Program-made: the position numbers and the translations under genes
The notes under the pieces: model-generated
What the model was told of the DNA's origin: nothing
Databases searched by the model: none
What the model saw: only the letters and a program-made list of their open reading frames with translations
NCBI GenBank assembly: GCA_028282325.1
Contig: JANQID010000050.1
Span: forward strand, 1,820 to 65,819
From: Chloroflexaceae bacterium
Lineage (GTDB): Bacteria; Chloroflexota; Chloroflexia; Chloroflexales; Chloroflexaceae
DNA length: 64,000 nt
Direction of reading: 5' to 3'
Part shown: positions 993-15,259 of the stretch, one piece after another
How the letters are laid out: each line of letters begins with the position of its first letter
Numbering within the stretch: position 1 is the stretch's first letter

Positions 993-1457
993 TTCTTTCG
1001 CTCCTACTTAATTAATGCTCTTCACGGATGCATAACGCTTGGGTTCACTGGCTGCCCACACGCAACCTGACCTAAAAGCGAGGTTGGAGTACAAACACCG
1101 GCTTGATTATACACCAACTCCGCCAGCAAGGTTACTTTCAATGCAGCCTCTGCGTCTCCGCGTGTCACCGTGTCGGTGCGTCGAAACTTACTCCAGCCCC
1201 AACGCGCGATATACGGCTCCGGCGGGGGTGAGCGCGCTCTGGAACATGAGCGGAATCGCCCCCAACCCACCGCGCATTTGCATTCAATCCAAAGCGATCG
1301 TACCATGCGCCCACGCAAATAGTCGCAGAGCAAGCACCGACGCAGGGTCACGCCGCGCAGCCGAGCAGGCGCGGCACATCTGGCGGCATCCAGATGCGTG
1401 GGCCGATCGCACTGCTTGTCGCTGCATAAACTCGTGTGGCATCCCGGGGAGGTTGAT

Positions 1458-4114: not shown

Positions 4115-7100
4115 ATGGATCAACGTACACACGATGTGCTTATCATTGGCGGCGGCATCAGCGGGATGCAGGCCGCACTCAATCTGGGCGACAAGGGCTA
4201 TAAGGTCGTCGTCGTCGATAAGCAGGCGAGCATCGGCGGCACGATGGTGAAGCTCGACAAGACCTTCCCGACGAATGATTGTTCGATCTGCATCGCTGCG
4301 CCGAAAATGGTCGAACTGGCGCGGCATCCGAATATCGATCTGTTGACCTACGCTCAGGTTGAGCAGGTCAGCGGCACCGCAGGCAATTTCCAGATTTCGA
4401 TCTGGCGGCGCACCAACTATGTCGATCCCGAAAAGTGTACCGGGTGCGGTGATTGTGCGAATGTGTGTCCGGTCGATGTTGTTGATACGTTCAACGCCGG
4501 GATGGCGAAACGCAAGGCGATCTATATCCAGTTTCCCCAGGCGGTGCCGTCTGTCTACACTATCGACTTCAAGCATTGCACCGGCTGTGGCTCCTGTGAC
4601 CGCGCCTGTATGGCGAAAGCCATCTTGTTTCTCAAGCCCTCGCGCGAGACGCGGCTCACGGTCGGCAGCATTATCGTTGCTACCGGCTTCGATGTGCTGG
4701 AGCCGGTTGAGATGCGCAAAGAATATGGCTATGGCAAGTACGCCAATGTGATCACTGCCTTGCAATACGAGCGCATTCTCTCAGCGTCGGGGCCGACCGC
4801 GGGCAAAATTCTGCGGCCTTCGGATGGCAAGCAGCCCGAACGGATCGCCTGGATCCAGTGCGTCGGCTCGCGCAGCGCCCAGAACGGCAACCCATATTGC
4901 TCGAAGATCTGCTGTATGTACGCTACGAAAGAAGCTGCAATCACAATCGACAGCCATCCTGACATCGACGCGGCGATCTTCTATATGGATCTGCGCGCGT
5001 ACGGCAAGGATTTCCAGCAGTATTATCGCCAGGCCGAGCGCAACGGCGTGCGCTACATTCGTGGGCGTCCGTCGAGCGTCTATGAGAACGCCGACCGCAG
5101 CCTGACGCTGGTCTACGAAAATACGCTCACCGGCGAGGCGCACGAGGAAGTCTTCGATATGGTTGTGCTCTCGACTTCGGTCGTTCCTTCGCCCGACAGC
5201 CGTCGGCTGGCGAATGTGCTCGGCGTCGCGATTGACGAGCACGGGTTTTTTGTTCAGCAAGATATGTTGCGTGATCCGCTGAAATCGACCCGTGACGGCG
5301 TTTTTCTCGCCGGCGGCGCGCAGGGGCCGAATGACATCCCCGACTCGGTGGCGCAGGCCAGCGGCGCGGCGGGACGAGCGGCGGCGGCGCTTCGTGATCG
5401 GCACGGCACGGTCGAGCGCAAGCAGGCCCCGGAGAAGGAGATCGATGGCGATGCGCCGCGTACCGGCGTGTTCGTGTGCAGTTGCGGCAAGAACATCGGC
5501 GGCTATGTCGATGTAGCCGATGTCACCGAATATGCCCGCGGCTTGCCCAACGTCATCTTCGCTGGCGAGTATCTGTTCGCTTGCTCCGAGGATGCGCAAC
5601 GCCGAATTAAAGAGGCGATTCAGGTGTATGACCTCAACCGTGTGGTGGTCGCCGCCTGCTCGCCGATCACCCACGGCGGCGTGTTTCAGCAGACGTGCGA
5701 GGAAGCCGGCATCAACCAGAATCTGTTTGATATGGCTAACATTCGCAACCAATGTTCGTGGGTGCATTCGCATGACCGCAACCGGGCGACGACGAAGTCG
5801 CGCGACCTGGTGCGTATGTCGGTTGCCAAATCTGCCCATCTGCGCCCGCTCTCGAATCGCGAGATCGGCGTGACCCGCGCCTGCCTGATCATCGGCGGCG
5901 GGATCGCCGGGATCAAGGCGGCGTTGACCACTGCCGAGATGGGCATCGATACGTATCTGGTTGAACGCGAGGCGGTGCTCGGCGGCAAGCTGCGCGATCT
6001 GTATACGCTCTATCCTGCCGACATTCCCGCCGGCGAAGCGCTTGGCCCGCTGGTGAGCGCGGTGGAGCGCCATGAGCGCATTCGGGTGTTTGTGAATTCA
6101 GAGGTGCGCACGGTTGACGGTTATATCGGCAACTTCCAGGTCGAGGTGCAATCGCGAGCCAGCGGCTTGACCGAACGCCTCGACATCGGCGCGATCATCG
6201 TCGCCACCGGTTTCCAGGAGGTCGATTTCGGCGGGCGCTATGGCTATGGCGAGCATCCCAATATCATCTCCCAGCTTGAACTTGAGCAGCGATTGCGCGC
6301 TGGCACGCTTGGCAATCCACGCACGGCGGTGATACTCAACTGCGCCGGGTCGATGGATGCGAGCAACCCGTCGTGTTGTCGCATCGGCTGCGGCGTGTCG
6401 GTCAAGAATATGCGCCGGATCCACGAAGTCGCGCCGAACGCACGTATGTTTTTGCTCTATCAAGATTTGCGCATGTTCGGCAAACAACAGGAAGAGTACT
6501 TCGCGGAGACGGTCAGACAGGTGCAGCCCTATCTGATCCGCTATGTCGCCGACCGACCGCCAAGCGTGCGCGTGCGCGGTGATCGCATCTTTGTGACGGT
6601 CTTCGACGTGCTGCTGCGCGACTATGTCGAGGTCGAGGCCGATCTGGTCGTGCTGACCACGGCGATGCGTGGCGACGCACGTACGCCGCAGCTCAAGCAG
6701 ATGCTCAAGGTCGCCGCCAACAGCGAGGATTTCTACAACGAAGCGCATGCGAAGATTCGCCCGCTTGACTTCGCCACCGATGGCGTGTATTTGTGCGGTT
6801 CGGCCCACTATCCCAAGAGCGTTCCGGACACAATCGCTCAAGCCGAAGGCGCCGCCTCGCGGGCGGCGATCCCGCTGCTGCGGGGCAAGGTTAGCACCGA
6901 GCCGATTATCGCCGAGATCGATGCCACGCATTGCGCCGGTTGCGGCATCTGCGTCACCCTCTGCCCGTATGGGGCGATCTCGATCAACGCCGAGCGCAGT
7001 GCGGCTGTTATCACCGACGTGATGTGCAAAGGATGTGGAACGTGCGTCGCGGCGTGTCCTTCCGGCGCAGCGCAGCAGCGCAACTTCACCGACCAGCAAC

Positions 7101-7132
7101 TGTTCGCGATGATCGAAACGGCGTGGGACTGA
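4115..7132 (+). CDS. hdrA: heterodisulfide reductase subunit A-like flavoprotein, tandem two-module form (QmoA-like + full HdrA/QmoB-like)
   Basis: 1005 aa. Module 1 (aa 1 to about 440) has DVLIIGGGISGMQAAL, FPTNDCSICI, an inserted ferredoxin domain (CTGCGDCANVCP, CTGCGSCDRAC) and CSKICC. Module 2 (from about aa 449) has the Cys-rich VFVCSCGKNIGG N-domain, a second dinucleotide motif LIIGGGIAGIKAAL and a C-terminal 2x[4Fe-4S] ferredoxin (CAGCGICVTLCP, CKGCGTCVAACP). Confidence 0.9.
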   Translation: MDQRTHDVLIIGGGISGMQAALNLGDKGYKVVVVDKQASIGGTMVKLDKTFPTNDCSICIAAPKMVELARHPNIDLLTYAQVEQVSGTAGNFQISIWRRTNYVDPEKCTGCGDCANVCPVDVVDTFNAGMAKRKAIYIQFPQAVPSVYTIDFKHCTGCGSCDRACMAKAILFLKPSRETRLTVGSIIVATGFDVLEPVEMRKEYGYGKYANVITALQYERILSASGPTAGKILRPSDGKQPERIAWIQCVGSRSAQNGNPYCSKICCMYATKEAAITIDSHPDIDAAIFYMDLRAYGKDFQQYYRQAERNGVRYIRGRPSSVYENADRSLTLVYENTLTGEAHEEVFDMVVLSTSVVPSPDSRRLANVLGVAIDEHGFFVQQDMLRDPLKSTRDGVFLAGGAQGPNDIPDSVAQASGAAGRAAAALRDRHGTVERKQAPEKEIDGDAPRTGVFVCSCGKNIGGYVDVADVTEYARGLPNVIFAGEYLFACSEDAQRRIKEAIQVYDLNRVVVAACSPITHGGVFQQTCEEAGINQNLFDMANIRNQCSWVHSHDRNRATTKSRDLVRMSVAKSAHLRPLSNREIGVTRACLIIGGGIAGIKAALTTAEMGIDTYLVEREAVLGGKLRDLYTLYPADIPAGEALGPLVSAVERHERIRVFVNSEVRTVDGYIGNFQVEVQSRASGLTERLDIGAIIVATGFQEVDFGGRYGYGEHPNIISQLELEQRLRAGTLGNPRTAVILNCAGSMDASNPSCCRIGCGVSVKNMRRIHEVAPNARMFLLYQDLRMFGKQQEEYFAETVRQVQPYLIRYVADRPPSVRVRGDRIFVTVFDVLLRDYVEVEADLVVLTTAMRGDARTPQLKQMLKVAANSEDFYNEAHAKIRPLDFATDGVYLCGSAHYPKSVPDTIAQAEGAASRAAIPLLRGKVSTEPIIAEIDATHCAGCGICVTLCPYGAISINAERSAAVITDVMCKGCGTCVAACPSGAAQQRNFTDQQLFAMIETAWD

Positions 7133-7165
7133 CTTGTAAACCTGCCAGGGTTCGCCAGGAAGACG

Positions 7166-7603
7166 ATGGCCGATATGGACGACACGTTCCAACCGAGAAT
7201 CATGGGCTTTTTGTGTAGCTGGTGCTCCTACTCCGGCGCTGATACGGCAGGCGTGAGCCGGATGCAGTACCCGCCGAATATTCGCATCATTCGTGTGATG
7301 TGTAGCGGACGGATCGAGCCGCTGCACGTGATGAAGGCGTTTGAGCAAGGAGCCGACGGCGTGCTGGTCTCCGGCTGTCATCCCGGCGATTGTCACTACG
7401 CAACGGGCAATTATTACACCCAACGCCGCTTTGCCGTTATGCGCCAGTTGCTCGACTTTTTCGGCATCGATCAGCGCCGCCTCAAACTGACCTGGGTTTC
7501 GGCGTCCGAAGGCGCGCGCTTCGCCGATATTGTCACCGCTATGACCGAGGAAATTCGTATGGTGGGTCCGCTCAATCTGCGCGCGAACCCTAAGGGTGTA
7601 TGA
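7166..7603 (+). CDS. mvhD: MvhD/FlxD-family protein (methyl-viologen-reducing hydrogenase delta subunit-like)
   Basis: 145 aa with FLCSWCSY...MCSGR...VSGCHPGDCHY, the characteristic MvhD Cys pattern. It starts 34 nt after hdrA. Confidence 0.9.
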   Translation: MADMDDTFQPRIMGFLCSWCSYSGADTAGVSRMQYPPNIRIIRVMCSGRIEPLHVMKAFEQGADGVLVSGCHPGDCHYATGNYYTQRRFAVMRQLLDFFGIDQRRLKLTWVSASEGARFADIVTAMTEEIRMVGPLNLRANPKGV

Positions 7604-7604
7604 G

Positions 7605-8558
7605 ATGACGGTTGTCAATGATCAATTGACGCTGATCCTGCGCGAGAAAGTGCATACGCTCTTCGCCGAGGGCGTCGCTGATGTCTTCATCGGCTATCGG
7701 CACGGCGGCAAGCCGCTCCGCGTCCAACCACACGTTGCCAGGAGTGCGGCCGATGCCGATCAACTGGTCTGGAATCCGACATGCATCAACAACCTCACCT
7801 CGACGCTCCACAAGTTCGCCGATATGCGCGTTGGCATTCTGGTCAAAGGTTGCGACTCGCGCGCGCTGGTTGAACTGATCAAACTGCGCCAGGTTCGACG
7901 TGATGGCGTTTACATCATCGGCGCGCCCTGTCCGGGGATTGTCGATCACGAACTGATCGCGCGGTCGGTTGATCCGGCGACGATTACGGACATTTTCGTG
8001 GAGGAAGCGCAGGTTATGCTCACGACCGACGCAGGCGAGATTACCCTCGACCCTGCGGACGCCCTCTACGCCAAATGCCTGACCTGCGCACAGCCGACGC
8101 CGGATCTGTACGACGAGCTGCTGGGCGACCCGATCGCGGTGCACCCGATACCGCTCGATGCTCGCTTCAACGCTGCGATCGAATTGGAGCAGCTTAGCGT
8201 TGCCGAGCGCTTCGCATTTTGGGACGAGCAGTTAAACAAGTGTACGCTCTGCTATGCCTGTCAGGCGGTCTGCCCGGTGTGCTTTTGCACAGCATGCGCT
8301 CTCGCATTGCCGCGCAACGATCCGAAGCGTAAGAATCGCGACCGCGAGAGCGTTTTCTCCTTCCATTTGATGCGTGCCTATCATATGACCGGTCGTTGCA
8401 TCGGGTGTTACGAGTGTGAGCGCGTCTGTCCGGTTGACATACCGTTGAGCGCGATTTTCCAGAAGGCGGAGAAAGAGTCGCGCGATCTGTTCGGCTACAA
8501 GGCGGGGAGCGATGTCGCTGCCGTACCGCCGTTGAGCACGTTTGGCGACAAGACATAA
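7605..8558 (+). CDS. 4Fe-4S dicluster protein, FlxB/FlxC / sulfhydrogenase-beta / AsrA-like
   Basis: The ORF-track start is GTG 7596, overlapping the mvhD stop. ATG 7605 has AAGGG 8 nt upstream. Motifs are CTLCYACQAVCPVCFC and CIGCYECERVCPVDIP (CPxCxC type), plus KGCDSRAL. Confidence 0.75.
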   Translation: MTVVNDQLTLILREKVHTLFAEGVADVFIGYRHGGKPLRVQPHVARSAADADQLVWNPTCINNLTSTLHKFADMRVGILVKGCDSRALVELIKLRQVRRDGVYIIGAPCPGIVDHELIARSVDPATITDIFVEEAQVMLTTDAGEITLDPADALYAKCLTCAQPTPDLYDELLGDPIAVHPIPLDARFNAAIELEQLSVAERFAFWDEQLNKCTLCYACQAVCPVCFCTACALALPRNDPKRKNRDRESVFSFHLMRAYHMTGRCIGCYECERVCPVDIPLSAIFQKAEKESRDLFGYKAGSDVAAVPPLSTFGDKT

Positions 8559-8575
8559 CGCGGGGAGTCTGCCTT

Positions 8576-8977
8576 ATGATCAAAATCACGGCCAGCGGCC
8601 GCCCGAACGAACTCCTGCGCAAGGCCGCGGCGCTCAGCGGGCAGGATCTTTTCGCCTGCTATCAATGCGGCACGTGCTCGGCGGGCTGTCCGATGGTCGC
8701 GGAGATGGATCTTTTGCCCGACCAACTGATACGCCACGTGCTGTTCGGAATGTCCGATGCGTTGGAGAGCACGGCGATCTGGGTGTGCGCGTCGTGCTAC
8801 CTCTGTGATGAACGTTGCCCGCGCGGCATCGATGTGTCAAAGATCATGGAAGCGTTGCGCCAGATCTGGCTACGCCAGAATGAAGATTACGTCCACGTAG
8901 CACAACTTCCTAAAGAGACGCTGGCGGAACTGCCGCCAATCGCTCTGGTGGCCAATTTCCGCAAGAATACGGGGTAA
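8576..8977 (+). CDS. hdrC: heterodisulfide reductase subunit C-like (2x[4Fe-4S])
   Basis: 133 aa with CYQCGTCSAGCP and CASCYLCDERCP, in typical HdrC spacing and length. Confidence 0.9.
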   Translation: MIKITASGRPNELLRKAAALSGQDLFACYQCGTCSAGCPMVAEMDLLPDQLIRHVLFGMSDALESTAIWVCASCYLCDERCPRGIDVSKIMEALRQIWLRQNEDYVHVAQLPKETLAELPPIALVANFRKNTG

Positions 8978-8982
8978 ACGGA

Positions 8983-9861
8983 ATGCATATCGATTACTAT
9001 CCAGGGTGTACCATCAAAGCCTCCGCCGGGCAATATGAGACATCGGTCAGGGCCGTGCTCGCGACGCTCGGCATCCAGATGAAGGAGATGGAGCAGTGGA
9101 ACTGCTGCGGCGTGGTTCACTCGCTGGCCAGCGATAACCTCATTCGCCACATCGCGCCGATTCGAGTGTTCGCCCGCCTTCAGGAGCAGGGCGGCAGCGA
9201 AATGCTGACGCTTTGCGATATGTGTTACAACACGCTGTCGCAGGCGAATCACCTGGTGCGCCAGAACGCGCGCCAGCGCGAGTCAATCAATGATTTTATC
9301 GAAGCCGAGGAAGATTACGATGGCGAAATTCACGTGCTGCATCTCTTACAAATCCTCCGTGACCGGGTGGGCTATCAGACAATCAAAAAACATGTTCGGC
9401 GCGCATTGCAAGGTTTAACGGTTTTTCCTTACTATGGTTGCAAGCTGCTCAGGCCGGGAGGGATGGGCATTGATGATCCGGAAGCCCCGCGCGTGCTGCG
9501 TGACCTGATGCATACGCTGGGCGCTGCGGTGGCGGATGACCCGTTGCAAACGCAATGCTGCGGTTCGTATCATATCGTCAACCACGATGAGATTGTGTCG
9601 CGACGGGTGGGCAAAATCGCCGCCCGCGCGCTGGAACGCGGCGCCGATGTGATTGTTCTCTCGTGCCCGCTGTGCCATTTCAACCTCGATACCCGGCAGG
9701 CTCTGGTCGATTCGCCGCTGCCGGTGTTGTATTTTACCCAACTGATGGGCGTCGCTTTTGGCCTGGATCTGGATGTGCTCGGCCTGAACCAGCACCATAT
9801 CGATCCCTTGATGCTGCTCCAGCAGCGCGGCTTTGTCCAGGAGGAGGAAGCATTGGTATGA
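8983..9861 (+). CDS. hdrB: heterodisulfide reductase subunit B-like (two CCG domains)
   Basis: 292 aa with YYPGC...WNCCG and YYGC...CCGS...CPLCHFNLD, the duplicated CCG-domain signature. Confidence 0.9.
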   Translation: MHIDYYPGCTIKASAGQYETSVRAVLATLGIQMKEMEQWNCCGVVHSLASDNLIRHIAPIRVFARLQEQGGSEMLTLCDMCYNTLSQANHLVRQNARQRESINDFIEAEEDYDGEIHVLHLLQILRDRVGYQTIKKHVRRALQGLTVFPYYGCKLLRPGGMGIDDPEAPRVLRDLMHTLGAAVADDPLQTQCCGSYHIVNHDEIVSRRVGKIAARALERGADVIVLSCPLCHFNLDTRQALVDSPLPVLYFTQLMGVAFGLDLDVLGLNQHHIDPLMLLQQRGFVQEEEALV

Positions 9862-10637
9862 TCGATCAACCCAGGGAAATCAACATCCAATTGATGGGCA
9901 AGGATTATAAGGTTTCGAGCGGTCTCACGATTATTGCCGCGATCGAATACGCCGGGTATAAATTGGTGCGTGGCGCGGGATGTCGCGCCGGATTCTGCGG
10001 CGCTTGCCCGACGCTCTATCGCAGAGCTGGGAGCCACAAGCTCTACACGGCGTTGGCTTGCCAGACCCTCGCCGAAGATGGAATGTGCCTGGTTCAGGTA
10101 CCCTTTGTTCCGGTTGTGCGGCGCCCCTACGACATCGAAGAGGTCGCCCCATCCGCAAATATCATCCTGCAATACTATCCCGAAGTTGCCGCATGCGTCT
10201 CGTGCAACACCTGCACACGCGCCTGTCCGCAGGGCATCTCGGTGATGGACTACATTCAGACGGCGTTGCGCGGCGATATTGAACAAACCGCGCTGCTCTC
10301 GTTCGATTGCATCTCCTGCGGTATTTGTTCAAGTCGCTGCCCGGCGGACATCAAGCATTACCCGGTTGGGCAACTGGCCCGCCGCATCTACAGCAAGTAT
10401 CTGCTGCCCAGGTCGAGTCAACTGGCCGATCGGCTTGACGAAATGGAGACCGAGCAGTGCGAAGTCGAGGTCGAAACGATGATGCACCTTTCAACCGAAG
10501 AGCTACGCGCACGCTACGAGCAACGCTCCTTCGAGACCGTCGCCGGGCGCGATCAGAAGCACAGCGCCATCCAGAAATGGGGCACGGCGGTTGATCCGGT
10601 TGACTACCGCGATGAAGTCGAAGAAGTGGCGTATTAG
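9858..10637 (+). CDS. SdhB/FrdB/TfrB-N-like iron-sulfur protein ([2Fe-2S] + 2 cubane motifs)
   Basis: The ORF-track start at 9663 lies inside hdrB. The in-frame ATG 9858 forms an ATGA overlap with the hdrB stop. Motifs are CRAGFCGAC...C (plant-type 2Fe-2S, Cx4Cx2C), CVSCNTCTRACP and CISCGICSSRCP. Confidence 0.85.
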   Translation: MIDQPREINIQLMGKDYKVSSGLTIIAAIEYAGYKLVRGAGCRAGFCGACPTLYRRAGSHKLYTALACQTLAEDGMCLVQVPFVPVVRRPYDIEEVAPSANIILQYYPEVAACVSCNTCTRACPQGISVMDYIQTALRGDIEQTALLSFDCISCGICSSRCPADIKHYPVGQLARRIYSKYLLPRSSQLADRLDEMETEQCEVEVETMMHLSTEELRARYEQRSFETVAGRDQKHSAIQKWGTAVDPVDYRDEVEEVAY

Positions 10638-10646
10638 GGGGCGACT

Positions 10647-12296
10647 ATGAAACTTATCAGAGGCTATCCCGAATATATGCGCAAAAGCATCAAACAGGTT
10701 GAACGCACCCGCCCAAACCGGCTCGAGCAAAGCATTCCTCCAATGAGCCTTGATGAACGCAAAGCTCTGCTGACCAAGTTTCACCCGGATTTTCGCGAGG
10801 ACCAAAAGCGCGCGCTGGCATGCGGGCCGAGCAAGGGCATGCGCATTCATCGCGAATTGGCCGACCTGCTCGAAGCGCAGCCGCTCGTGACCTCAACCCT
10901 CGATCTCAACCAGATCGACTTTGACGTTGATGTGTTGATCATCGGCGGCGGCGGTGCCGGGACGGTGGCGGCGCTCTGGGCAATGAAAGAAGGCATCGAT
11001 CCCAAGCGCATCCTGATTGTCACCAAGCTGCGCCACGGCGACTCGAACTCGACGATGGCCCAGGGCGGGATTCAGGCTGCCGACCGCCCCAACGACTCGC
11101 CGGCGACGCACTATCTCGACGTGATTGGCGGCGGCCACTTCACCAACCGCGCCGATTTGGTCAAGGCGCTGGTGATGGATGCGCCGTCGATTATCGCCTG
11201 GCACGAGAGTCTGGGCATGATGTATGACAAAGACGCGGACGGTAACTTTGTCGAAAATCCTGGCGGCGGCACTTCGCGCAATCGAATGCACTCGGCGAAA
11301 GATTACACCGGCCTGGAAATCATGCGCGTTTTGCGCGACGAGGCTCGCAATGCCGGCATACCGGTGGTCGAGTTCGCCCCGGCTATCGAATTGCTGATGG
11401 ACGACCGGGGGCGCGTCGCGGGCGCGGTGTTGCTGAACCTGGAAACAAAGAAGTACCGCATTGTCAAAGCGCAGGCGACCATTTTGACGACCGGCGGGTT
11501 GGGGCGCCTGCATATGCAGCAGTTCCCGACGACCAACCACTATGGCGCAACCGGCGATGGCCTGGTGCTGGCCTATCGCGTCGGGGCGGAGTTGATCGAT
11601 CTGGACGCGATCCAATATCATCCGACCGGCGCAGCGTTTCCGGCTCAGATGGCGGGATTGTTGATTACCGAGAAGGTGCGCGGAATGGGCGCGCAGCCGG
11701 TGAACAAAGACGGTGAGTTGTTCGTTTTCCCGCTCGAACCGCGCGATGTTGAGTCGTCGGCGTTTATTCGCGAATGCTACGAACGCGAACTGGGCATCGA
11801 AACGCCGCAAGGTATGCGCGGCGTCTGGCTCGATTCGCCGATGGTTGATATGCTGCACGGGCCGGGCACGATCGAGGCGTCACTGCCGGCGATGTTCCGT
11901 ATGTATCAGCGCTTCGGCGTTGATATGACCCGCGATCCAATCCTGGTCTTTCCGACGTTGCACTATCAGAACGGAGGCGTTGTCGCCGATGAGCGCGGCG
12001 CGACCAACGTGCCGGGGTTGTATGTCGCCGGCGAGGTGATGGGCGGCATTCACGGGAAAAACCGCCTGATGGGCAACTCGCTGCTCGATTTCAACGTTTT
12101 TGGGCGTCGCGCTGGTATCGCCGCTGCGAACTACGCGCGACAGGCGATCGCCGGCAAGCTCTCGCTGGCCCACGTCGAGGAATACAAACGCCAGTTGCGC
12201 GATGCCGGTATCGATAATGATCACGCCGCGCCGCAAATTTTGCCCGAATATCGCGGCCAGGAAGCGCTGGAACGGATGCTGGACATTCCAATTTAG
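10647..12296 (+). CDS. FAD flavoprotein of the succinate dehydrogenase / fumarate reductase / L-aspartate oxidase superfamily
   Basis: 549 aa with DVLIIGGGGAGTVAAL, SNSTMAQGGIQAA (no His for covalent FAD), IQYHPTG, LITEKVRGMGA, HYQNGGV and GLYVAGEVMGGIHGKNRLMGNSLLDFNVFGRRAG. A roughly 90-aa N-terminal extension precedes the FAD motif. Confidence 0.85.
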   Translation: MKLIRGYPEYMRKSIKQVERTRPNRLEQSIPPMSLDERKALLTKFHPDFREDQKRALACGPSKGMRIHRELADLLEAQPLVTSTLDLNQIDFDVDVLIIGGGGAGTVAALWAMKEGIDPKRILIVTKLRHGDSNSTMAQGGIQAADRPNDSPATHYLDVIGGGHFTNRADLVKALVMDAPSIIAWHESLGMMYDKDADGNFVENPGGGTSRNRMHSAKDYTGLEIMRVLRDEARNAGIPVVEFAPAIELLMDDRGRVAGAVLLNLETKKYRIVKAQATILTTGGLGRLHMQQFPTTNHYGATGDGLVLAYRVGAELIDLDAIQYHPTGAAFPAQMAGLLITEKVRGMGAQPVNKDGELFVFPLEPRDVESSAFIRECYERELGIETPQGMRGVWLDSPMVDMLHGPGTIEASLPAMFRMYQRFGVDMTRDPILVFPTLHYQNGGVVADERGATNVPGLYVAGEVMGGIHGKNRLMGNSLLDFNVFGRRAGIAAANYARQAIAGKLSLAHVEEYKRQLRDAGIDNDHAAPQILPEYRGQEALERMLDIPI

Positions 12297-12299
12297 CAG

Positions 12300-12319
12300 G
12301 GGCGAAACCTCTTTCGCCC
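12300..12319 (+). terminator. GGGCGAAA-CCTC-TTTCGCCC hairpin, 4 nt after the flavoprotein stop
   Basis: 8-bp perfect stem. It is one of three copies of the GGCGAAA-NNNN-TTTCGCC motif in this window. No T-run follows, so terminator function is uncertain. Confidence 0.4.
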
Positions 12320-12388
12320 GCCATTGCGCCAGGGTCGAAGGAAGATGAGGCTATACGACGGACATTCGAGCGAATACGAGATGAGCTT

Positions 12389-12616
12389 ATGCATATGTTC
12401 ACAGTAACAATCAATGACAACTGGTGCAAAGGGTGCGAACTCTGCATTCTGTTCTGCCCGGTGAAGGCGCTGAAGCTATCGGAACACCTCAACAAACGCG
12501 GCATTCACCCGCCCGAAATGCTGCCGGTGAACACGTGCAACGGATGTCGCTTGTGCGAACTCGTCTGTCCTGATTTCGCGGTTACGGTAGAGGAGGGCGT
12601 CATCGTCAATGGATAG
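12389..12616 (+). CDS. korD: 2-oxoacid:ferredoxin oxidoreductase delta (ferredoxin-like) subunit
   Basis: 75 aa with CKGCELCILFCP and CNGCRLCELVCP. An alternative ATG lies at 12395. It overlaps korA by 8 nt. Confidence 0.85.
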   Translation: MHMFTVTINDNWCKGCELCILFCPVKALKLSEHLNKRGIHPPEMLPVNTCNGCRLCELVCPDFAVTVEEGVIVNG

Positions 12617-13772
12617 AAATCTGATTCGCAAAGCCCTGGGGGCAAAGGTGCAGTTTATTCAAGGCGATGAGGCATGCGCCTATGGTGCGCTCCTGGCCGG
12701 ATGCACCTTCTTCGGCGGCTACCCGATCACCCCTGCCACCGAAGTGGCCGAAGTGATGGCCCGGCTGCTGCCCAAAATCGGCGGCTGCTACATCCAGATG
12801 GAAGATGAAATCGCAAGCATTGCGGCGATCATCGGCGCAAGCTGGACCGGCGCCAAAACGATGACTTCGACTTCCGGGCCGGGCTTTTCGCTGATGCAGG
12901 AAAATCTGGGCTACGGGATTATGACCGAGACGCCCTGCGTGATTATCAACGTCCAGCGCTCCGGGCCATCGACCGGGCAGCCGACGCTCGGCGCCTACGG
13001 CGATATGATGCAGGCGCGCTGGGGCACCCACGGCGACCATGAAATCATTATGCTGTGCCCGGCGAATGTGCAGGAATCGCTCGACCTGACGATCACCGCG
13101 TTCAATTTCGCCGAACGCTATCGCACGCCGGTACTGGTATTCATCGATGGCGAGCTTGGTCATATGCGTGAGCGGGTGATTATTCCCGAAGACGACGAGA
13201 TCGCGATTGTCAATCGCACGATCAGCAACGTCTCTCCCGACGAATATGTCCCGTTCGGCGTAAATGGCGACCTGGTTCCCGCGTTTGCGCCATTTGGCGC
13301 TGGCTATCACACCTACGTCACCGGGCTGACCCACAACGAACAGGGGTTGCCCCGCGCATCGAGCGCGGAGGTGCATAACCGATTGGTGCGCCGTCTGGCC
13401 GATAAGATCCTGAACAACACCGATGACATTGTGTTGTATGAAGAGCTCGAAACCGACGACTGCGAGATTTTGCTCGTCAGCTATGGGATTACAGCCGGCG
13501 TCTGCCGGGACGTGGTCGCAACCGCGCGCCAGCGCGGCGTCAAAGTCGGTATGCTGCGGTTGATCACCATCTGGCCGTTCGCCGAAGAAGCCGTGGCCCG
13601 TCTGGCGCAACAGGTGCGCATGATGATTGTGTCGGAAATGAATATGGGCCAGATCATCCACCCTATTCGCGAAGCCGTGGCCGGTCGCTGCGATGTTCGG
13701 TTAATCTCGAAGATTGGCGGCGCTTTGCATATGCCGGCGGAAATTATGGAGGCTGTCGAACAATGGCGATGA
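12609..13772 (+). CDS. korA: 2-oxoglutarate/2-oxoacid:ferredoxin oxidoreductase alpha subunit
   Basis: 387 aa with GDEACAYGALLAGCTFFGGYPITPATE and TSTSGPGFSLMQENLGY, typical of OFOR alpha subunits. Confidence 0.9.
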   Translation: MDRNLIRKALGAKVQFIQGDEACAYGALLAGCTFFGGYPITPATEVAEVMARLLPKIGGCYIQMEDEIASIAAIIGASWTGAKTMTSTSGPGFSLMQENLGYGIMTETPCVIINVQRSGPSTGQPTLGAYGDMMQARWGTHGDHEIIMLCPANVQESLDLTITAFNFAERYRTPVLVFIDGELGHMRERVIIPEDDEIAIVNRTISNVSPDEYVPFGVNGDLVPAFAPFGAGYHTYVTGLTHNEQGLPRASSAEVHNRLVRRLADKILNNTDDIVLYEELETDDCEILLVSYGITAGVCRDVVATARQRGVKVGMLRLITIWPFAEEAVARLAQQVRMMIVSEMNMGQIIHPIREAVAGRCDVRLISKIGGALHMPAEIMEAVEQWR

Positions 13773-14617
13773 AGCAAGCCGAAGATCTGCGCGAAAAATA
13801 TCTGCGCCAGTCGATGTTTCCGACCATTTTCTGCGATGGATGCGGCATCGGCAATGTGTTGAACTACACGCTCTGGGCGATCGACGAGATAGAATTGGAC
13901 ATCGACCGCACGGTTTTTGTGTCAGGCATCGGCTGCTCATCGCGCCTGACTGGGTATGTGAATGCCGATGGCCTGCACACCACCCATGGGCGGGCGCTGG
14001 CCTTCGCCACCGGCGTGAAGGTTGCCAATCCTGACCTGACCGTGATCGTCTTCACCGGCGATGGCGATGGATCGGGCATCGGCGGCAACCACCTGCTGCA
14101 TACCATCCGGCGCAACATCGATATGACCGTCATTCTGGTGAACAACTACACCTACGGCATGACCGGCGGTCAGGTCGCGCCGACGACGCCGATGGGCAGT
14201 ATTACCACTACCACTCCCTATGGGAACTCCGAGTGGCCGTTAGATGTATGCGAGGTGGCGCGGGCGCTCGGCGCGCCTTACGTTGCACGCTGGCCGGTGA
14301 CGTTTCCCTATCAGCCGATCAAGTCGATTGAACAGGGCATTCGCAAGCGCGGGTTTGCCCTGATCGAGATGCTCGCGCCTTGCCCTACGGCCTATGGTCG
14401 GCGCAACAACCTTCGAGCGCTGGATCAAAGCTGGAAGTGGTACAAAGATCACTCGCTCCTCGTGGAAGAATACGAGCGGATCGAGCGCTTCGGAACCGAC
14501 GCCGAACGTGCAACGCTGCAAGGCAAGATCAAGGTCGGCGTTTTCCAGGACAGCGAGCGGGAGTGCTTCTCCGACCAATGGCGCGCGGTGGTGGAACGGG
14601 TGAAGCTGAAAGCGTGA
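13763..14617 (+). CDS. korB: 2-oxoacid:ferredoxin oxidoreductase beta (TPP-binding) subunit
   Basis: 284 aa with FCDGCGIG, GIGCSSR, FTGDGDGSGIGGNH and LVNNYTYGMTGGQ (TPP and FeS motifs). It overlaps korA by 10 nt. Confidence 0.9.
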   Translation: MAMKQAEDLREKYLRQSMFPTIFCDGCGIGNVLNYTLWAIDEIELDIDRTVFVSGIGCSSRLTGYVNADGLHTTHGRALAFATGVKVANPDLTVIVFTGDGDGSGIGGNHLLHTIRRNIDMTVILVNNYTYGMTGGQVAPTTPMGSITTTTPYGNSEWPLDVCEVARALGAPYVARWPVTFPYQPIKSIEQGIRKRGFALIEMLAPCPTAYGRRNNLRALDQSWKWYKDHSLLVEEYERIERFGTDAERATLQGKIKVGVFQDSERECFSDQWRAVVERVKLKA

Positions 14618-14680
14618 TGATGTCGGGGGAATAGCCCGCATCATCTTTATCATCATCTGGCGAGTAGCGAGAGTGAGCCT

Positions 14681-15259
14681 ATGCGTCAAGAAATCAGAAT
14701 TTGCGGCTTTGGCGGCCAGGGCGTGGTTACGGCGGCGGTTATTCTTGGTAAGGCGGCGGCGGTATTCGACAACCTCGTCGCTACGCAAACCCAGTCCTAT
14801 GGTCCGGAGGCGCGCGGCGGCGCAGCCAAAGCCGAGGTCGTGATCTCCGACGGGCCGATTGGCTTTCCGGCAGTTGTCGCTGCTGACGTGCTGGCGGCAA
14901 TGTCTCAAGAAGCCTTCAACAAATATAAACAGGATGTCAAAATCGATGGTGTCATCATCGTAGACCCCGACCTGGTGATCGATCATCACGCCGACCAGCC
15001 GATATATTGCGTTCCGGCAACCCGCATCGCCGAGGAGTTGGGCAACCCAATCGTCGCCAACATCGTAATGATCGGCGCTCTCACCGCTGTCGCCCATCCA
15101 GTGTCGTGGGATGCCATCCTCGCCTCAACGCTGGAAAGCGTCCCCGCGCGTTTCAAAGATCTGAACCAGCGCGCCCTGGAGACCGGATTTGAAGCCGGAC
15201 AGGCGGTAGCCTCAGGCAACGGGCGCGCTGCTGCTTCGGTAGATCGTGATTCACGCTGA
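14681..15259 (+). CDS. korC: 2-oxoacid:ferredoxin oxidoreductase gamma subunit
   Basis: 192 aa with IRICGFGGQGVVTAAVILG and QSYGPEARGGAAKAEV. The D-A-B-C gene order matches the oor/kor-type enzymes. Confidence 0.9.
   Translation: MRQEIRICGFGGQGVVTAAVILGKAAAVFDNLVATQTQSYGPEARGGAAKAEVVISDGPIGFPAVVAADVLAAMSQEAFNKYKQDVKIDGVIIVDPDLVIDHHADQPIYCVPATRIAEELGNPIVANIVMIGALTAVAHPVSWDAILASTLESVPARFKDLNQRALETGFEAGQAVASGNGRAAASVDRDSR

What the first reader, a model, noticed from the sequence alone, without database searches (positions are those of the whole stretch)
8983..12296. 'Split TfrB' arrangement: hdrB and an SdhB-like FeS gene translationally coupled (ATGA) next to the flavoprotein
Thiol:fumarate reductase TfrB of Methanothermobacter is a single protein. 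It combines a [2Fe-2S] + 2x[4Fe-4S] SdhB-like part with an HdrB-type CCG domain, and it partners with the flavoprotein TfrA. Here the same parts exist as separate, tightly coupled genes. The hdrB stop and the FeS-gene start share ATGA at 9858-9861, and the flavoprotein gene follows 9 nt later. This suggests that the CCG-domain active site and the dicarboxylate-type flavin site cooperate. The arrangement may be a bacterial, multi-subunit relative of Tfr using an unknown thiol/disulfide or other CCG substrate.
Basis: partly seen in the sequence, partly recalled or inferred. Interest (0 to 1): 0.6.

Follow-up and report, generated by a model that had tools for sequence, protein, structure and literature searches.

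The report
Hdr-linked soluble fumarate reductase operon
Three tightly packed genes in a photosynthetic Chloroflexaceae bacterium end an 11-gene operon that joins a membrane-free, fumarate-reductase-like enzyme to an electron-splitting heterodisulfide-reductase module and a 2-oxoglutarate enzyme. The arrangement is real and widespread, but it was already predicted in the literature, has turned up many times in this scan, and has never been tested at the bench.

Summary
hdrB (8983-9861), an Fe-S gene (9858-10637, ATGA overlap) and a flavoprotein gene (10647-12296, 9-nt gap) are intact and co-directional. All cofactor and catalytic residues are conserved.

They are the tail of hdrA-mvhD-fdhB-like-hdrC-hdrB-FeS-flavoprotein-korDABC (4115-15259).

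- The flavoprotein belongs to a sharply separate, very conserved clade found in at least 588 species of Bacteria and Archaea. It is neither NadB nor TfrA nor SdhA/FrdA. It keeps the whole fumarate/succinate site but lacks the covalent-FAD histidine and the Pfam C-terminal domain.
- The Fe-S gene sits beside it in 78 of 79 loci.
- The neighbouring HdrB belongs to a dedicated HdrB clade. That clade accompanies the pair even when unlinked, and excludes other HdrB copies of the same genomes.

The most likely function is a cytoplasmic fumarate reductase fed by the high-potential branch of a bifurcating HdrA. The low-potential branch would make ferredoxin for Kor.

"Split TfrB" is a fair picture of the architecture but not of descent, and no thiol needs to be invoked.

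The idea is already published as a hypothesis (Endoriftia rTCA cluster; P. thermosuccinogenes succinate operon). This scan has met the same kind of operon in at least 34 other genomes. No biochemistry was found in the library searched.

The parts
4115..7132 (+). hdrA, a 1005-aa tandem two-module HdrA-type flavoprotein (putative bifurcating FAD subunit)
   Evidence: NCBIfam HdrA2 model scores 1041 bits (cut-off 1100) in three stretches. Pfam finds Pyr_redox_2, FAD_oxidored and several Fer4 domains. A hdrA match of about 3 kb (full length) recurs in Chloroflexaceae and many Thermoplasmata loci. This is the only hdrA in the genome.
7166..7603 (+). mvhD/flxD-type [2Fe-2S] adaptor subunit
   Evidence: Pfam FlpD, E = 1.4e-55. 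It is the only copy in the genome.
7596..8558 (+). FdhB/FrhB-like Fe-S subunit, the probable electron-input module (donor unknown)
   Evidence: PDB sequence hits to FdhB subunits of Fdh-Hdr complexes: 9t1s_M (5e-30), 8rvu_E and 7bkb_E. Pfam gives a weak FrhB_FdhB_C match plus a 4Fe-4S dicluster. The gene overlaps mvhD by 8 nt. It recurs after mvhD in 16 of 73 loci.
8576..8977 (+). hdrC, a 2x[4Fe-4S] subunit
   Evidence: NCBIfam HdrC model TIGR03290, 80 bits. Motifs CX2CX2CX3CP at C28-C38 and C71-C81. It ends 5 nt before hdrB.
8983..9861 (+). hdrB, with two CCG domains (two non-cubane [4Fe-4S] sites)
   Evidence: Pfam CCG x2. PDB HdrB 8rvu_b, 1.2e-35 over residues 1-273. The ten Cys are invariant in 45 of 45 relatives. 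It belongs to the dedicated HdrB clade.
9858..10637 (+). Fe-S subunit with [2Fe-2S] + 2x[4Fe-4S], remotely SdhB/TfrB-N-like, plus a helical tail of about 90 aa
   Evidence: Twelve Cys invariant in 46 sequences. hhalign to the genome's own SdhB gives 94% and to TfrB gives 95%. AlphaFold pLDDT 82.7. Adjacent to the flavoprotein gene in 78 of 79 loci.
10647..12296 (+). flavoprotein, fumarate-reductase-like, with non-covalent FAD and a 94-aa N-terminal extension
   Evidence: FAD_binding_2 over residues 95-479. Catalytic set H325, T341, E342, R345, R366, H439 and R473 is invariant in 56 sequences; N134 replaces the covalent-FAD His. Best fold match is E. coli FrdA 1kf6_A, E = 5e-32. Own clade with 100/100 support.
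12389..12616 (+). korD, the 2x[4Fe-4S] delta subunit of 2-oxoacid:ferredoxin oxidoreductase
   Evidence: 75-aa ORF with two CX2CX2CX3CP motifs, overlapping korA by 8 nt.
12609..15259 (+). korA, korB and korC (2-oxoacid:ferredoxin oxidoreductase alpha, beta and gamma)
   Evidence: Pfam POR_N/PFOR_II, TPP_enzyme_C and POR. kor genes lie in the same locus as the flavoprotein gene in 27 of 43 loci longer than 15 kb.

Best explanation
hdrB, the Fe-S gene and the flavoprotein gene encode the acceptor end of a cytoplasmic, membrane-free complex. Its subunits are the FdhB-like protein, MvhD, HdrA, HdrC, HdrB, the Fe-S protein and the flavoprotein.

Proposed mechanism.
1. An electron donor enters through the FdhB-like/MvhD side and reaches the FAD of HdrA. 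The donor is not identified; the genome has no Mvh hydrogenase.
2. HdrA splits the electron pair.
3. The high-potential electron runs through the clusters of HdrC, the two CCG clusters of HdrB and the three clusters of the Fe-S subunit. It ends at a non-covalently bound FAD, where fumarate is reduced to succinate.
4. The low-potential electron reduces ferredoxin.
5. The co-transcribed KorDABC uses that ferredoxin to carboxylate succinyl-CoA to 2-oxoglutarate. In this RuBisCO-containing phototroph that would be a reductive branch to glutamate.

Shown here: the genes, their cofactor motifs, an intact dicarboxylate active site, conserved linkage and a dedicated HdrB lineage.

Inferred: fumarate as substrate, complex formation, bifurcation, the direction of flow, and that the CCG clusters act as a wire rather than a thiol site.
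For: - Operon structure. Eleven co-directional genes have gaps of -8 to 92 nt, including the ATGA overlap.
- Active site. HPT His325, T341-E342-x2-R345, the PRD motif with R366 (equivalent to FrdA R287), H439 and R473 are invariant in 56 family members. The predicted fold is closest to E. coli FrdA.
- Not a substitute for a missing enzyme. The genome has its own nadA-nadB and a canonical sdhCAB.
- Linkage across 83 species loci. Fe-S and flavoprotein genes are adjacent in 78 of 79. hdrB lies directly upstream in 45 of 73. In loci longer than 15 kb, hdrB is present in 37 of 43, hdrA in 34 of 43 and kor in 27 of 43.
- Dedicated HdrB clade with SH-aLRT 100. It includes the best unlinked copies in 5 of 5 genomes where the pair stands alone.
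- In Methanofastidiosum and Theionarchaea genomes the linked HdrB scores about 147 bits on the CoB-CoM HdrB model. Other copies in the same genomes score 280-330 bits.
- Input side. The 320-aa protein resembles the FdhB subunits that dock to Hdr in solved complexes.
- Literature. The same gene set is proposed as a bifurcating complex in Ca. Endoriftia and Thioflavicoccus (PMC6315080). The Endoriftia cluster is reported as co-expressed, except for tfrAB (PMC11636981). P. thermosuccinogenes, which produces succinate, has a 'succinate operon' of fumarase, Flx-Hdr and a two-subunit fumarate reductase (PMC7282089).
Against: - No biochemical or structural evidence for this family was found in the library searched.
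- Substrate identity rests on active-site conservation, which L-aspartate oxidase shares.
- In 6 of 43 long loci no hdr gene lies within 10 kb, so the pair can at least be encoded separately.
- The electron donor in this genome is unidentified. There is no MvhAG, only a Hox-type hydrogenase elsewhere. CofD is present but CofH was not found.
- In Endoriftia, tfrAB did not follow the expression pattern of the rest of the cluster.
- I did not verify that the published Endoriftia and P. thermosuccinogenes enzymes belong to this exact protein family.
- No multimer prediction could be run.
Confidence: 0.65

Rival explanations
1. True 'split Tfr'. HdrC-HdrB-FeS-flavoprotein would be a self-contained thiol:fumarate oxidoreductase. 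The CCG clusters of HdrB oxidise two thiols (or a dithiol protein such as a DsrC-like carrier) to a disulfide and pass the electrons to fumarate. HdrA-MvhD then re-reduces that disulfide in a separate catalytic cycle.
For: - The module content equals TfrB plus TfrA.
- All ten CCG cysteines are invariant, as in disulfide-converting HdrB.
- In some archaea the four genes stand alone with no hdrA within 9-10 kb (L001, L013, L018).
- A thiol or DsrC-like route is one of the two options named for Endoriftia (PMC11636981).
Against: - No candidate thiol is known in Chloroflexaceae.
- A single HdrB would have to serve both as thiol oxidase for the reductase and as disulfide reductase for HdrA, which amounts to a futile loop within one complex.
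- The linked HdrB is a lineage distinct from the CoM-S-S-CoB-reducing HdrB of methanogens.
- hdrA lies in the same locus in 34 of 43 long loci.
Confidence: 0.12
2. Same complex, opposite physiological direction. Succinate oxidation to fumarate (an uphill donor at about +30 mV) would be driven by confurcation with reduced ferredoxin from Kor-catalysed 2-oxoglutarate oxidation. The product would be NAD(P)H, F420H2 or H2.
For: - One 2-oxoglutarate gives one reduced ferredoxin and one succinate, which is exactly the pair a confurcating HdrA needs. Kor linkage is common.
- Many carriers are peptide- or amino-acid-fermenting archaea, some with MvhADG in the operon (L003).
- The Culexarchaeia paper suggests succinate oxidation coupled to proton reduction (PMC9723716).
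Against: - This genome already has a quinone-linked SdhCAB for succinate oxidation, and it is a RuBisCO-containing phototroph.
- Non-covalent FAD is usual for enzymes that work as fumarate reductases (established knowledge of the Sdh/Frd family).
- P. thermosuccinogenes produces succinate.
Confidence: 0.12
3. The flavoprotein acts on another substrate, for example L-aspartate, another C4/C5 unsaturated dicarboxylate, or an enoate such as urocanate- or acrylate-type compounds. The Hdr module would supply or accept electrons for that reaction.
For: - The family is a separate clade on a long stem (2.07 substitutions per site). It sits in a supergroup with NadB and TfrA whose internal order is unresolved.
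- It has a unique, confidently folded 94-aa N-terminal extension and lacks the usual C-terminal domain.
Against: - Every residue that binds and protonates fumarate in FrdA and Fcc3 is invariant.
- A true NadB exists in the genome.
- Frequent neighbours are TCA-cycle genes: kor, isocitrate dehydrogenase in L004, and fumarase in the published P. thermosuccinogenes operon.
Confidence: 0.08
4. Chance or merely regulatory adjacency. An ordinary HdrABC-MvhD complex with its own unknown disulfide substrate happens to be co-transcribed with an independent two-subunit ferredoxin-dependent fumarate reductase.
For: The Fe-S/flavoprotein pair forms a two-gene unit with no hdr gene nearby in some lineages (L040, L076).
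Against: - The HdrB clade is dedicated and tracks the pair across both domains of life, even when unlinked.
- This is the genome's only hdrABC set.
- The translational overlap is conserved within the family.
Confidence: 0.03

Closest known systems
Proposed Flx/Hdr-linked two-subunit fumarate reductase. Examples are the rTCA gene cluster of Ca. Endoriftia persephone and Thioflavicoccus mobilis (Rubin-Blum et al. 2019, PMC6315080; Mitchell et al. 2024, PMC11636981) and the 'succinate operon' of Pseudoclostridium thermosuccinogenes (PMC7282089, citing the Koendjbiharie and van Kranenburg 2019 preprint).
   Same: - Anchor-less Fe-S plus flavoprotein pair ('frdB/frdA' or 'tfrAB') together with hdrC, hdrB, hdrA and an MvhD/FlxD gene.
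- In the symbionts korDABC is also present in the same cluster.
- The same functional proposal: bifurcation to fumarate and ferredoxin.
   Different: - Gene order differs. Here it is hdrA-mvhD-X-hdrC-hdrB-FeS-flavo-korDABC. In Endoriftia it is frdB-frdA-hdrC-hdrB-korDABC-hdrA-flxDCBA.
- There is no FlxA/FlxB NADH module here, only a single FdhB-like subunit.
- HdrA here is a 1005-aa tandem fusion.
- The host is a Chloroflexaceae phototroph with RuBisCO and no ATP-citrate-lyase context examined.
- Orthology of the published proteins to this family was not checked here.
Thiol:fumarate reductase TfrAB of Methanothermobacter and Methanococcales (NCBIfam NF004900 and NF004898)
   Same: - Soluble enzyme.
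- TfrA is the best-scoring curated model for the flavoprotein (325 bits) and the best BLAST reference (222-260 bits).
- TfrB holds the same three modules: [2Fe-2S], 2x[4Fe-4S] and two CCG motifs.
   Different: - The flavoprotein scores far below the TfrA cut-off (718) and matches only profile positions 6-426.
- It forms a separate clade, with an N-terminal extension and a short C-terminus.
- The TfrB modules lie on two or three polypeptides, in the order CCG then Fe-S.
- HdrB here is the long HdrB type, not the short CCG domain of TfrB.
- No CoM/CoB is expected in this host.
MvhADG-HdrABC and Fdh-Hdr complexes of methanogens (PDB 5odc, 7bkb, 8rvu, 9t1s)
   Same: HdrA, HdrB, HdrC, MvhD and an FdhB-like subunit all have clear sequence matches to the solved subunits. 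A bifurcating FAD subunit is wired to the CCG clusters.
   Different: - There is no hydrogenase or FdhA catalytic subunit.
- All HdrB and HdrC equivalog scores are below cut-off (150 against 345; 80 against 160).
- This HdrB lineage is distinct from methanogen HdrB.
- An extra Fe-S/flavoprotein pair follows HdrB.
Type E succinate:quinone reductase (SdhABEF of Sulfolobales) and methylmenaquinol:fumarate reductase (MfrABE/SdhABE of Campylobacterota)
   Same: A separate CCG-domain subunit (SdhE) accompanies an SdhA/SdhB pair. The window's HdrB hits the MFR SdhE model at 135 bits.
   Different: - Those flavoproteins are canonical SdhA with the C-terminal domain, and the complexes are membrane-associated and quinone-linked.
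- Here all models score far below cut-off, and HdrA/MvhD are present instead of a quinone site.
Soluble five-subunit NADH-dependent fumarate reductase of Hydrogenobacter thermophilus (Miura et al. 2008, cited in PMC13147460)
   Same: A cytoplasmic, multi-subunit fumarate reductase serving a reductive TCA route.
   Different: Its subunit composition was not examined here, and its genes are reported as dispersed in the genome. Relatedness to this family is untested.

Membership tests
Thiol:fumarate reductase TfrA (NCBIfam NF004900) | Whole-protein score at or above the curated cut-off (718 bits), with a full-length match | tested here: not met
   325.6 bits, matching profile positions 6-426 of 546. 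True TfrA from methanogen genomes scores 766-828 bits.
Thiol:fumarate reductase TfrA | Falls inside the TfrA clade in a tree with NadB and SdhA/FrdA | tested here: not met
   The family (28 rows) and TfrA (8 rows) are each monophyletic at 100/100. They share a supergroup with NadB (99/97) whose internal order is unresolved.
Thiol:fumarate reductase TfrB (NCBIfam NF004898) | A single polypeptide carrying [2Fe-2S] + 2x[4Fe-4S] + two CCG motifs, scoring at least 385 bits | tested here: not met
   The Fe-S protein, HdrC and HdrB each hit a different part of the model at 24-27 bits. There is no fusion in any of the loci; apparent fusions from my script were disproved by translation.
Thiol:fumarate reductase | Uses CoM-SH plus CoB-SH as the electron donor | not testable with these tools
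   This needs an enzyme assay. CoM/CoB biosynthesis genes were not searched.
Succinate dehydrogenase / quinol:fumarate reductase flavoprotein (SdhA/FrdA) | Dicarboxylate active-site residues: HPT His, TExxR, proton-donor Arg, HY..GG His and NRL Arg | tested here: met
   H325, T341/E342/R345, R366, H439 and R473 align to E. coli SdhA/FrdA residues and are invariant in 56 sequences.
Succinate dehydrogenase / quinol:fumarate reductase flavoprotein (SdhA/FrdA) | Histidine for covalent 8-alpha-FAD linkage | tested here: not met
   N134 aligns with SdhA His45 (RSHTVAAQGG against DSNSTMAQGG), and the Asn is invariant in the family.
Succinate dehydrogenase / quinol:fumarate reductase flavoprotein (SdhA/FrdA) | C-terminal Succ_DH_flav_C domain, and a family model score above cut-off | tested here: not met
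   No PF02910 hit. TIGR01812 scores 273 bits against a cut-off of 567. The genome's own SdhA scores 1196 bits on its model.
SdhB/FrdB iron-sulfur subunit | [2Fe-2S] + [4Fe-4S] + [3Fe-4S] arrangement, with a TIGR00384 score of at least 88 | tested here: not met
   20 bits. The third motif is a full four-Cys [4Fe-4S] motif. Remote homology only: hhalign 94% to the genome's own SdhB and 9.7% to E. coli SdhB.
Complex II (any type) | A membrane anchor or quinone-site subunit encoded with the AB pair | tested here: not met
   None of the 11 operon genes has an anchor-family hit. The genome's canonical sdhC (b558 type) lies elsewhere.
L-aspartate oxidase NadB (TIGR00551) | Score of at least 452.75 bits, placement in the NadB clade, and linkage to nadA | tested here: not met
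   270 bits. The NadB clade (100/100) excludes the family. A true nadB (529.5 bits) next to nadA lies on contig C64.
Heterodisulfide reductase HdrB (TIGR03288) | Two CCG motifs (CXnCCGXmCXXC), ten Cys in all | tested here: met
   all ten Cys present and invariant in 45 of 45 relatives.
Heterodisulfide reductase HdrB (TIGR03288) | Equivalog score of at least 345 bits (CoM-S-S-CoB reductase proper) | tested here: not met
   150 bits. Methanogen HdrB scores 460-483 bits. The window's HdrB falls in a clade separate from these.
Proposed Hdr/Flx-linked soluble fumarate reductase (literature hypothesis) | An anchor-less Fe-S/flavoprotein pair co-located with hdrA, hdrB, hdrC and an MvhD/FlxD gene (with or without kor) | tested here: met
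   for the window.
Proposed Hdr/Flx-linked soluble fumarate reductase (literature hypothesis) | Orthology of the window's flavoprotein to the published Endoriftia and P. thermosuccinogenes proteins | not tested
A search seeded with a Clostridia-labelled member returned no named cultured organism.
Proposed Hdr/Flx-linked soluble fumarate reductase (literature hypothesis) | Physical complex and coupled reduction of fumarate and ferredoxin | not testable with these tools
   This needs purification and assay or a multimer structure. No such data turned up in the paper searches.

The most novel reading that the evidence does not exclude
Outside methanogens, this dedicated HdrB lineage would not handle any disulfide. 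Its two non-cubane CCG clusters would serve purely as an electron wire from a bifurcating HdrA to a fumarate-reducing flavoprotein. Fumarate would then be the long-sought high-potential acceptor of HdrABC-type complexes in hundreds of uncultured bacterial and archaeal lineages. In this RuBisCO-containing phototroph, the complex plus KorDABC would form a self-contained device that makes 2-oxoglutarate from fumarate, succinyl-CoA and CO2 without any separate low-potential reductant.
Probability: 0.4. Interest if true: 0.7.

Novelty: new member of a known kind. Interest (0 to 1): 0.4.

Why it matters
HdrABC-type genes are common in non-methanogenic anaerobes, where their acceptor is mostly unknown. 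Fumarate (about +30 mV) would be an excellent high-potential acceptor for flavin-based bifurcation.

A complex that couples fumarate reduction to ferredoxin reduction, feeding 2-oxoglutarate synthase directly, would change several energy budgets. These include reductive and branched TCA routes, succinate fermentation and, run in reverse, anaerobic succinate oxidation.

The family is very conserved (58-81% identity across both domains). It is present in at least 588 species representatives, yet no biochemistry was found for it.

This window adds three things:
- a Chloroflexaceae phototroph host;
- a variant with tandem HdrA and an FdhB-like input subunit;
- comparative evidence that the accompanying HdrB is a dedicated lineage.

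The concept itself is already in the literature and has been met repeatedly in this scan.

Tried and rejected
1. HdrB-FeS gene fusions. My first script suggested fused ORFs in L021, L024 and L083. Direct translation shows a stop between the genes, so there are no fusions.
2. NadB reading. Rejected on model score, tree position and the presence of nadA-nadB elsewhere in the genome.
3. Whole-fold similarity of the Fe-S subunit to SdhB/FrdB. Foldseek gave only domain-level hits (NuoG/HydA/Xdh-type [2Fe-2S] domain; HdrC/RnfC-type dicluster domain). hhalign to E. coli SdhB was insignificant. Only the genome's own type-B SdhB and TfrB gave significant profile matches.
4. H2 as donor in this genome. 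There is no MvhAG. The only related [NiFe] hydrogenase is a HoxEFUYH-type operon on contig C51.
5. F420 as donor. The result is inconclusive. CofD is present above cut-off, but CofH was not found in a 99.98%-complete genome.
6. Naming a cultured carrier, or linking the family to the published P. thermosuccinogenes or Endoriftia proteins, through a second homologue search. Only MAG labels were returned.
7. Promoter and terminator scans gave nothing above the shuffled expectation.
9. Complex prediction. No multimer tool was available.

Full report
**Observation.**
- An ORF at 8983-9861 (292 aa) ends with TGA at 9859-9861.
- The next ORF begins with ATG at 9858, so ATGA at 9858-9861 is shared. 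It ends at 10637.
- A 549-aa ORF begins 9 nt later, at 10647, and ends at 12296.
- A GGAGGAGG Shine-Dalgarno-like run precedes the overlapped start.
- The same 4-nt overlap is kept in five other Chloroflexaceae loci (coordinates).

**Domain content (Pfam and NCBIfam).**
- The first protein has two CCG domains. Its best models are HdrB (150 bits) and the CCG subunit SdhE of methylmenaquinol:fumarate reductase (135 bits).
- The second has a weak [2Fe-2S] domain plus a 4Fe-4S dicluster domain.
- The third has a FAD_binding_2 domain over residues 95-479 and no Succ_DH_flav_C domain. Its best model is TfrA at 325.6 bits, far below the 718-bit cut-off. SdhA/FrdA and NadB models follow, also below cut-off.

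**Cofactor and catalytic residues.**
- HdrB carries both CXnCCGXmCXXC motifs. All ten cysteines are invariant in 45 related HdrBs.
- The Fe-S protein has C42/C47/C50/C68 ([2Fe-2S]) and two CX2CX2CX3CP motifs. All 12 cysteines are invariant in 46 orthologues.
- In residue-level alignments to E. coli SdhA and FrdA, Salmonella NadB and mycobacterial SdhA, the flavoprotein keeps the whole dicarboxylate site:
  - the HPT histidine (H325);
  - T341-E342-x2-R345;
  - the PRD arginine that matches FrdA R287 (R366);
  - the HY..GG histidine (H439);
  - the NRL arginine (R473).
- All of these are invariant in 56 family members.
- The histidine that links FAD covalently in SdhA/FrdA is replaced by an invariant Asn (N134).
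- The AlphaFold model (pLDDT 87, pTM 0.89) is closest to E. coli FrdA (1kf6_A, E = 5e-32, TM 0.66). NadB appears only at rank 46.
- The 94-residue N-terminal extension is confidently folded. The C-terminus is short.

**Context in the window.** The three genes end a longer co-directional run:
- hdrA (4115-7132), a 1005-aa tandem HdrA;
- mvhD (7166-7603);
- a 320-aa protein (7596-8558) that matches the FdhB subunits of solved Fdh-Hdr complexes (9t1s_M at 5e-30, 8rvu_E, 7bkb_E);
- hdrC (8576-8977);
- then hdrB, the Fe-S gene and the flavoprotein gene;
- after 92 nt, korD (12389-12616), korA, korB and korC (to 15259).

Pattern scans for promoters and terminators gave nothing above the shuffled expectation.

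**The genome.**
- The assembly is 4.6 Mb, 57.7% G+C and 99.98% complete. It encodes PufL/PufM and a RuBisCO large subunit.
- Its closest relatives for this gene are labelled Chloroflexaceae or Oscillochloris MAGs. It is therefore an Oscillochloris-like filamentous phototroph.
- It has a genuine nadB (529.5 bits, above cut-off) next to nadA. It also has a canonical sdhC(b558)-sdhA-sdhB set elsewhere. The window's flavoprotein is thus a third, separate paralogue.
- This is the only hdrABC/mvhD set in the genome.
- There is no MvhAG. The one related [NiFe] hydrogenase is a HoxEFUYH operon.
- CofD is present, but CofH was not found. The electron donor of the FdhB-like subunit remains open.

**Distribution and linkage.**
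- The flavoprotein family is unusually conserved. Identity is 74-81% within Chloroflexaceae. It is 58-68% to Thermoplasmata, Theionarchaea, Methanofastidiosa, Asgard, Bathyarchaeia, Culexarchaeia, Acetothermia/Bipolaricaulota, Thermotogae, WOR-3, Aminicenantes, Spirochaetota and others.
- In 83 non-redundant loci:
  - the Fe-S gene is adjacent to the flavoprotein gene in 78 of 79 loci with enough upstream sequence;
  - hdrB lies directly upstream of the Fe-S gene in 45 of 73.
- In the 43 loci longer than 15 kb, hdrB is present in 37, hdrA in 34, mvhD in 34 and kor genes in 27.
- Gene order varies. Examples are kor-hdrA-mvhD-(mvhGA)-hdrCB-FeS-flavo, and FeS-flavo-kor-hdrA-hdrCB. In Methanofastidiosa the four genes stand alone.
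- Within the order Chloroflexales the gene was found in 9 of 26 sampled genomes of the same family, and in 0 of 54 genomes of three other families. Taken with the high identity to archaeal copies, this points to lateral acquisition.

**Is HdrB a real partner?** I built a tree of 61 HdrB sequences.
- One clade (SH-aLRT 100, stem 1.02) holds three groups: all 29 copies adjacent to the Fe-S gene, 11 copies elsewhere in the same locus, and the best HdrB hits from five genomes where the pair has no hdr gene within 10 kb.
- This clade excludes the other HdrB paralogues of those same genomes and the true HdrB of methanogens.
- In Methanofastidiosum and Theionarchaea genomes, the linked copy scores about 147 bits on the CoB-CoM HdrB model. 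Other copies in the same genomes score 280-330 bits.

This is the strongest evidence here that the CCG subunit and the flavoenzyme work together.

**Where does the flavoprotein sit?** I built a tree of 56 sequences (IQ-TREE, LG+C20). It held 28 family members, 8 TfrA that pass the curated cut-off, archaeal and E. coli SdhA/FrdA, and E. coli, archaeal and own-genome NadB.
- The family is monophyletic (100/100) on a long stem (2.07).
- It lies in a supported supergroup (99/97) with TfrA and NadB, apart from SdhA/FrdA.
- The branching order inside that supergroup is unresolved.
- It lies inside neither the NadB clade (100/100) nor the TfrA clade (100/100).

Equally, it is not a TfrA.

**The 'split TfrB' idea.**
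- True TfrB (475 aa, from a methanogen genome) aligns with the Fe-S family over residues 54-200 (hhalign 95%).
- It aligns with the window's HdrB over residues 261-457 (E = 1e-5), and with HdrC over residues 128-233.
- Architecturally, then, Fe-S protein plus HdrB equals TfrB, with HdrC as an extra dicluster unit.
- HdrB here is the long HdrB/SdhE type, the chromosomal order is CCG then Fe-S, and no fusion exists in any locus.

This looks like an independent assembly of the same modules rather than a split gene.

**Most likely mechanism.** See Best explanation. The high-potential branch of a bifurcating HdrA would be wired through HdrC, HdrB and the Fe-S subunit to a non-covalent FAD that reduces fumarate. 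The low-potential branch would reduce ferredoxin for KorDABC. From memory, not checked here: Oscillochloris-type phototrophs have been reported to lack 2-oxoglutarate dehydrogenase and to make 2-oxoglutarate reductively, which would fit such a device.
- Shown: genes, motifs, linkage and the dedicated HdrB lineage.
- Inferred: substrate, complex formation, bifurcation and direction.
- Rivals: a thiol-mediated split Tfr; the same complex run in reverse (succinate plus reduced ferredoxin confurcation); another substrate; mere adjacency.

**What is known.**
- The same gene set was described for Ca. Endoriftia and Thioflavicoccus (frdB-frdA-hdrC-hdrB-korDABC-hdrA-flxDCBA). [quoted passage not shown]
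- Co-expression of that cluster, with tfrAB as the exception, was reported later (PMC11636981).
- P. thermosuccinogenes has a 'succinate operon' of fumarase, Flx-Hdr and a two-subunit fumarate reductase. [quoted passage not shown]
- Culexarchaeia and Thiomargarita papers mention SdhA-like genes next to Hdr genes.
- The paper searches found no purification, assay or structure.
- This scan's own notes list the same kind of operon in at least 34 other genomes, and the follow-up reports shown reached similar conclusions. I consulted them only after the main analyses.

**Verdict.**
- This is a new member, with a Chloroflexaceae-specific variant, of a kind already hypothesised but biochemically untested.

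Noticed in passing
window 7596-8558: An FdhB/FrhB-like Fe-S subunit follows mvhD with an 8-nt overlap. No FdhA, hydrogenase or FlxA/B partner lies anywhere in the operon. The genome has CofD above cut-off but no CofH hit, so it is unclear whether F420, NAD(P)H or something else is the donor.
   Followed up: partly
window 4115-7132: HdrA is a 1005-aa tandem fusion of two HdrA-type modules. The same full-length form (matches of about 3 kb) recurs in several Thermoplasmata loci (for example L017, L025, L032), not only in Chloroflexaceae.
   Followed up: partly
own genome contig C51:315-8082 (L157): A HoxE-HoxF-HoxU-HoxY-HoxH bidirectional [NiFe] hydrogenase operon followed by hypF. It is the only relative of MvhA in the genome.
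   Followed up: partly
Chloroflexales survey: Distribution is patchy. The flavoprotein gene was found in 9 of 26 sampled genomes of the same family (several genera, but 0 of 13 in the largest genus) and in 0 of 54 genomes of three sister families. Archaeal homologues are 58-68% identical. This suggests lateral transfer into one Chloroflexaceae lineage. One genome (G186) also has a second copy at 47% identity.
   Followed up: no
L004:10686-12980 (Acetothermia): In this locus the flavoprotein gene is followed by a 374-aa Fer4+CCG protein (HdrD/GlpC-like) and an isocitrate dehydrogenase gene. That makes a second CCG protein in the same TCA-flavoured operon.
   Followed up: no
L003:3591-6987 (Asgard): mvhD-mvhG-mvhA plus a HycI-type protease sit directly upstream of hdrC-hdrB-FeS-flavoprotein. 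This is an H2-linked version of the same module.
   Followed up: no
genomes G106, G107 and G110: The unlinked HdrB matches of the dedicated clade are flagged with one in-frame TGA inside the match. I did not check whether this is only the neighbouring gene's stop or a selenocysteine codon.
   Followed up: no
window 1398-3668: A 756-aa protein whose C-terminal half matches acyl-ACP reductase and PigE-type models well below cut-off. It has no obvious partner nearby. First-stage notes had already flagged it.
   Followed up: no
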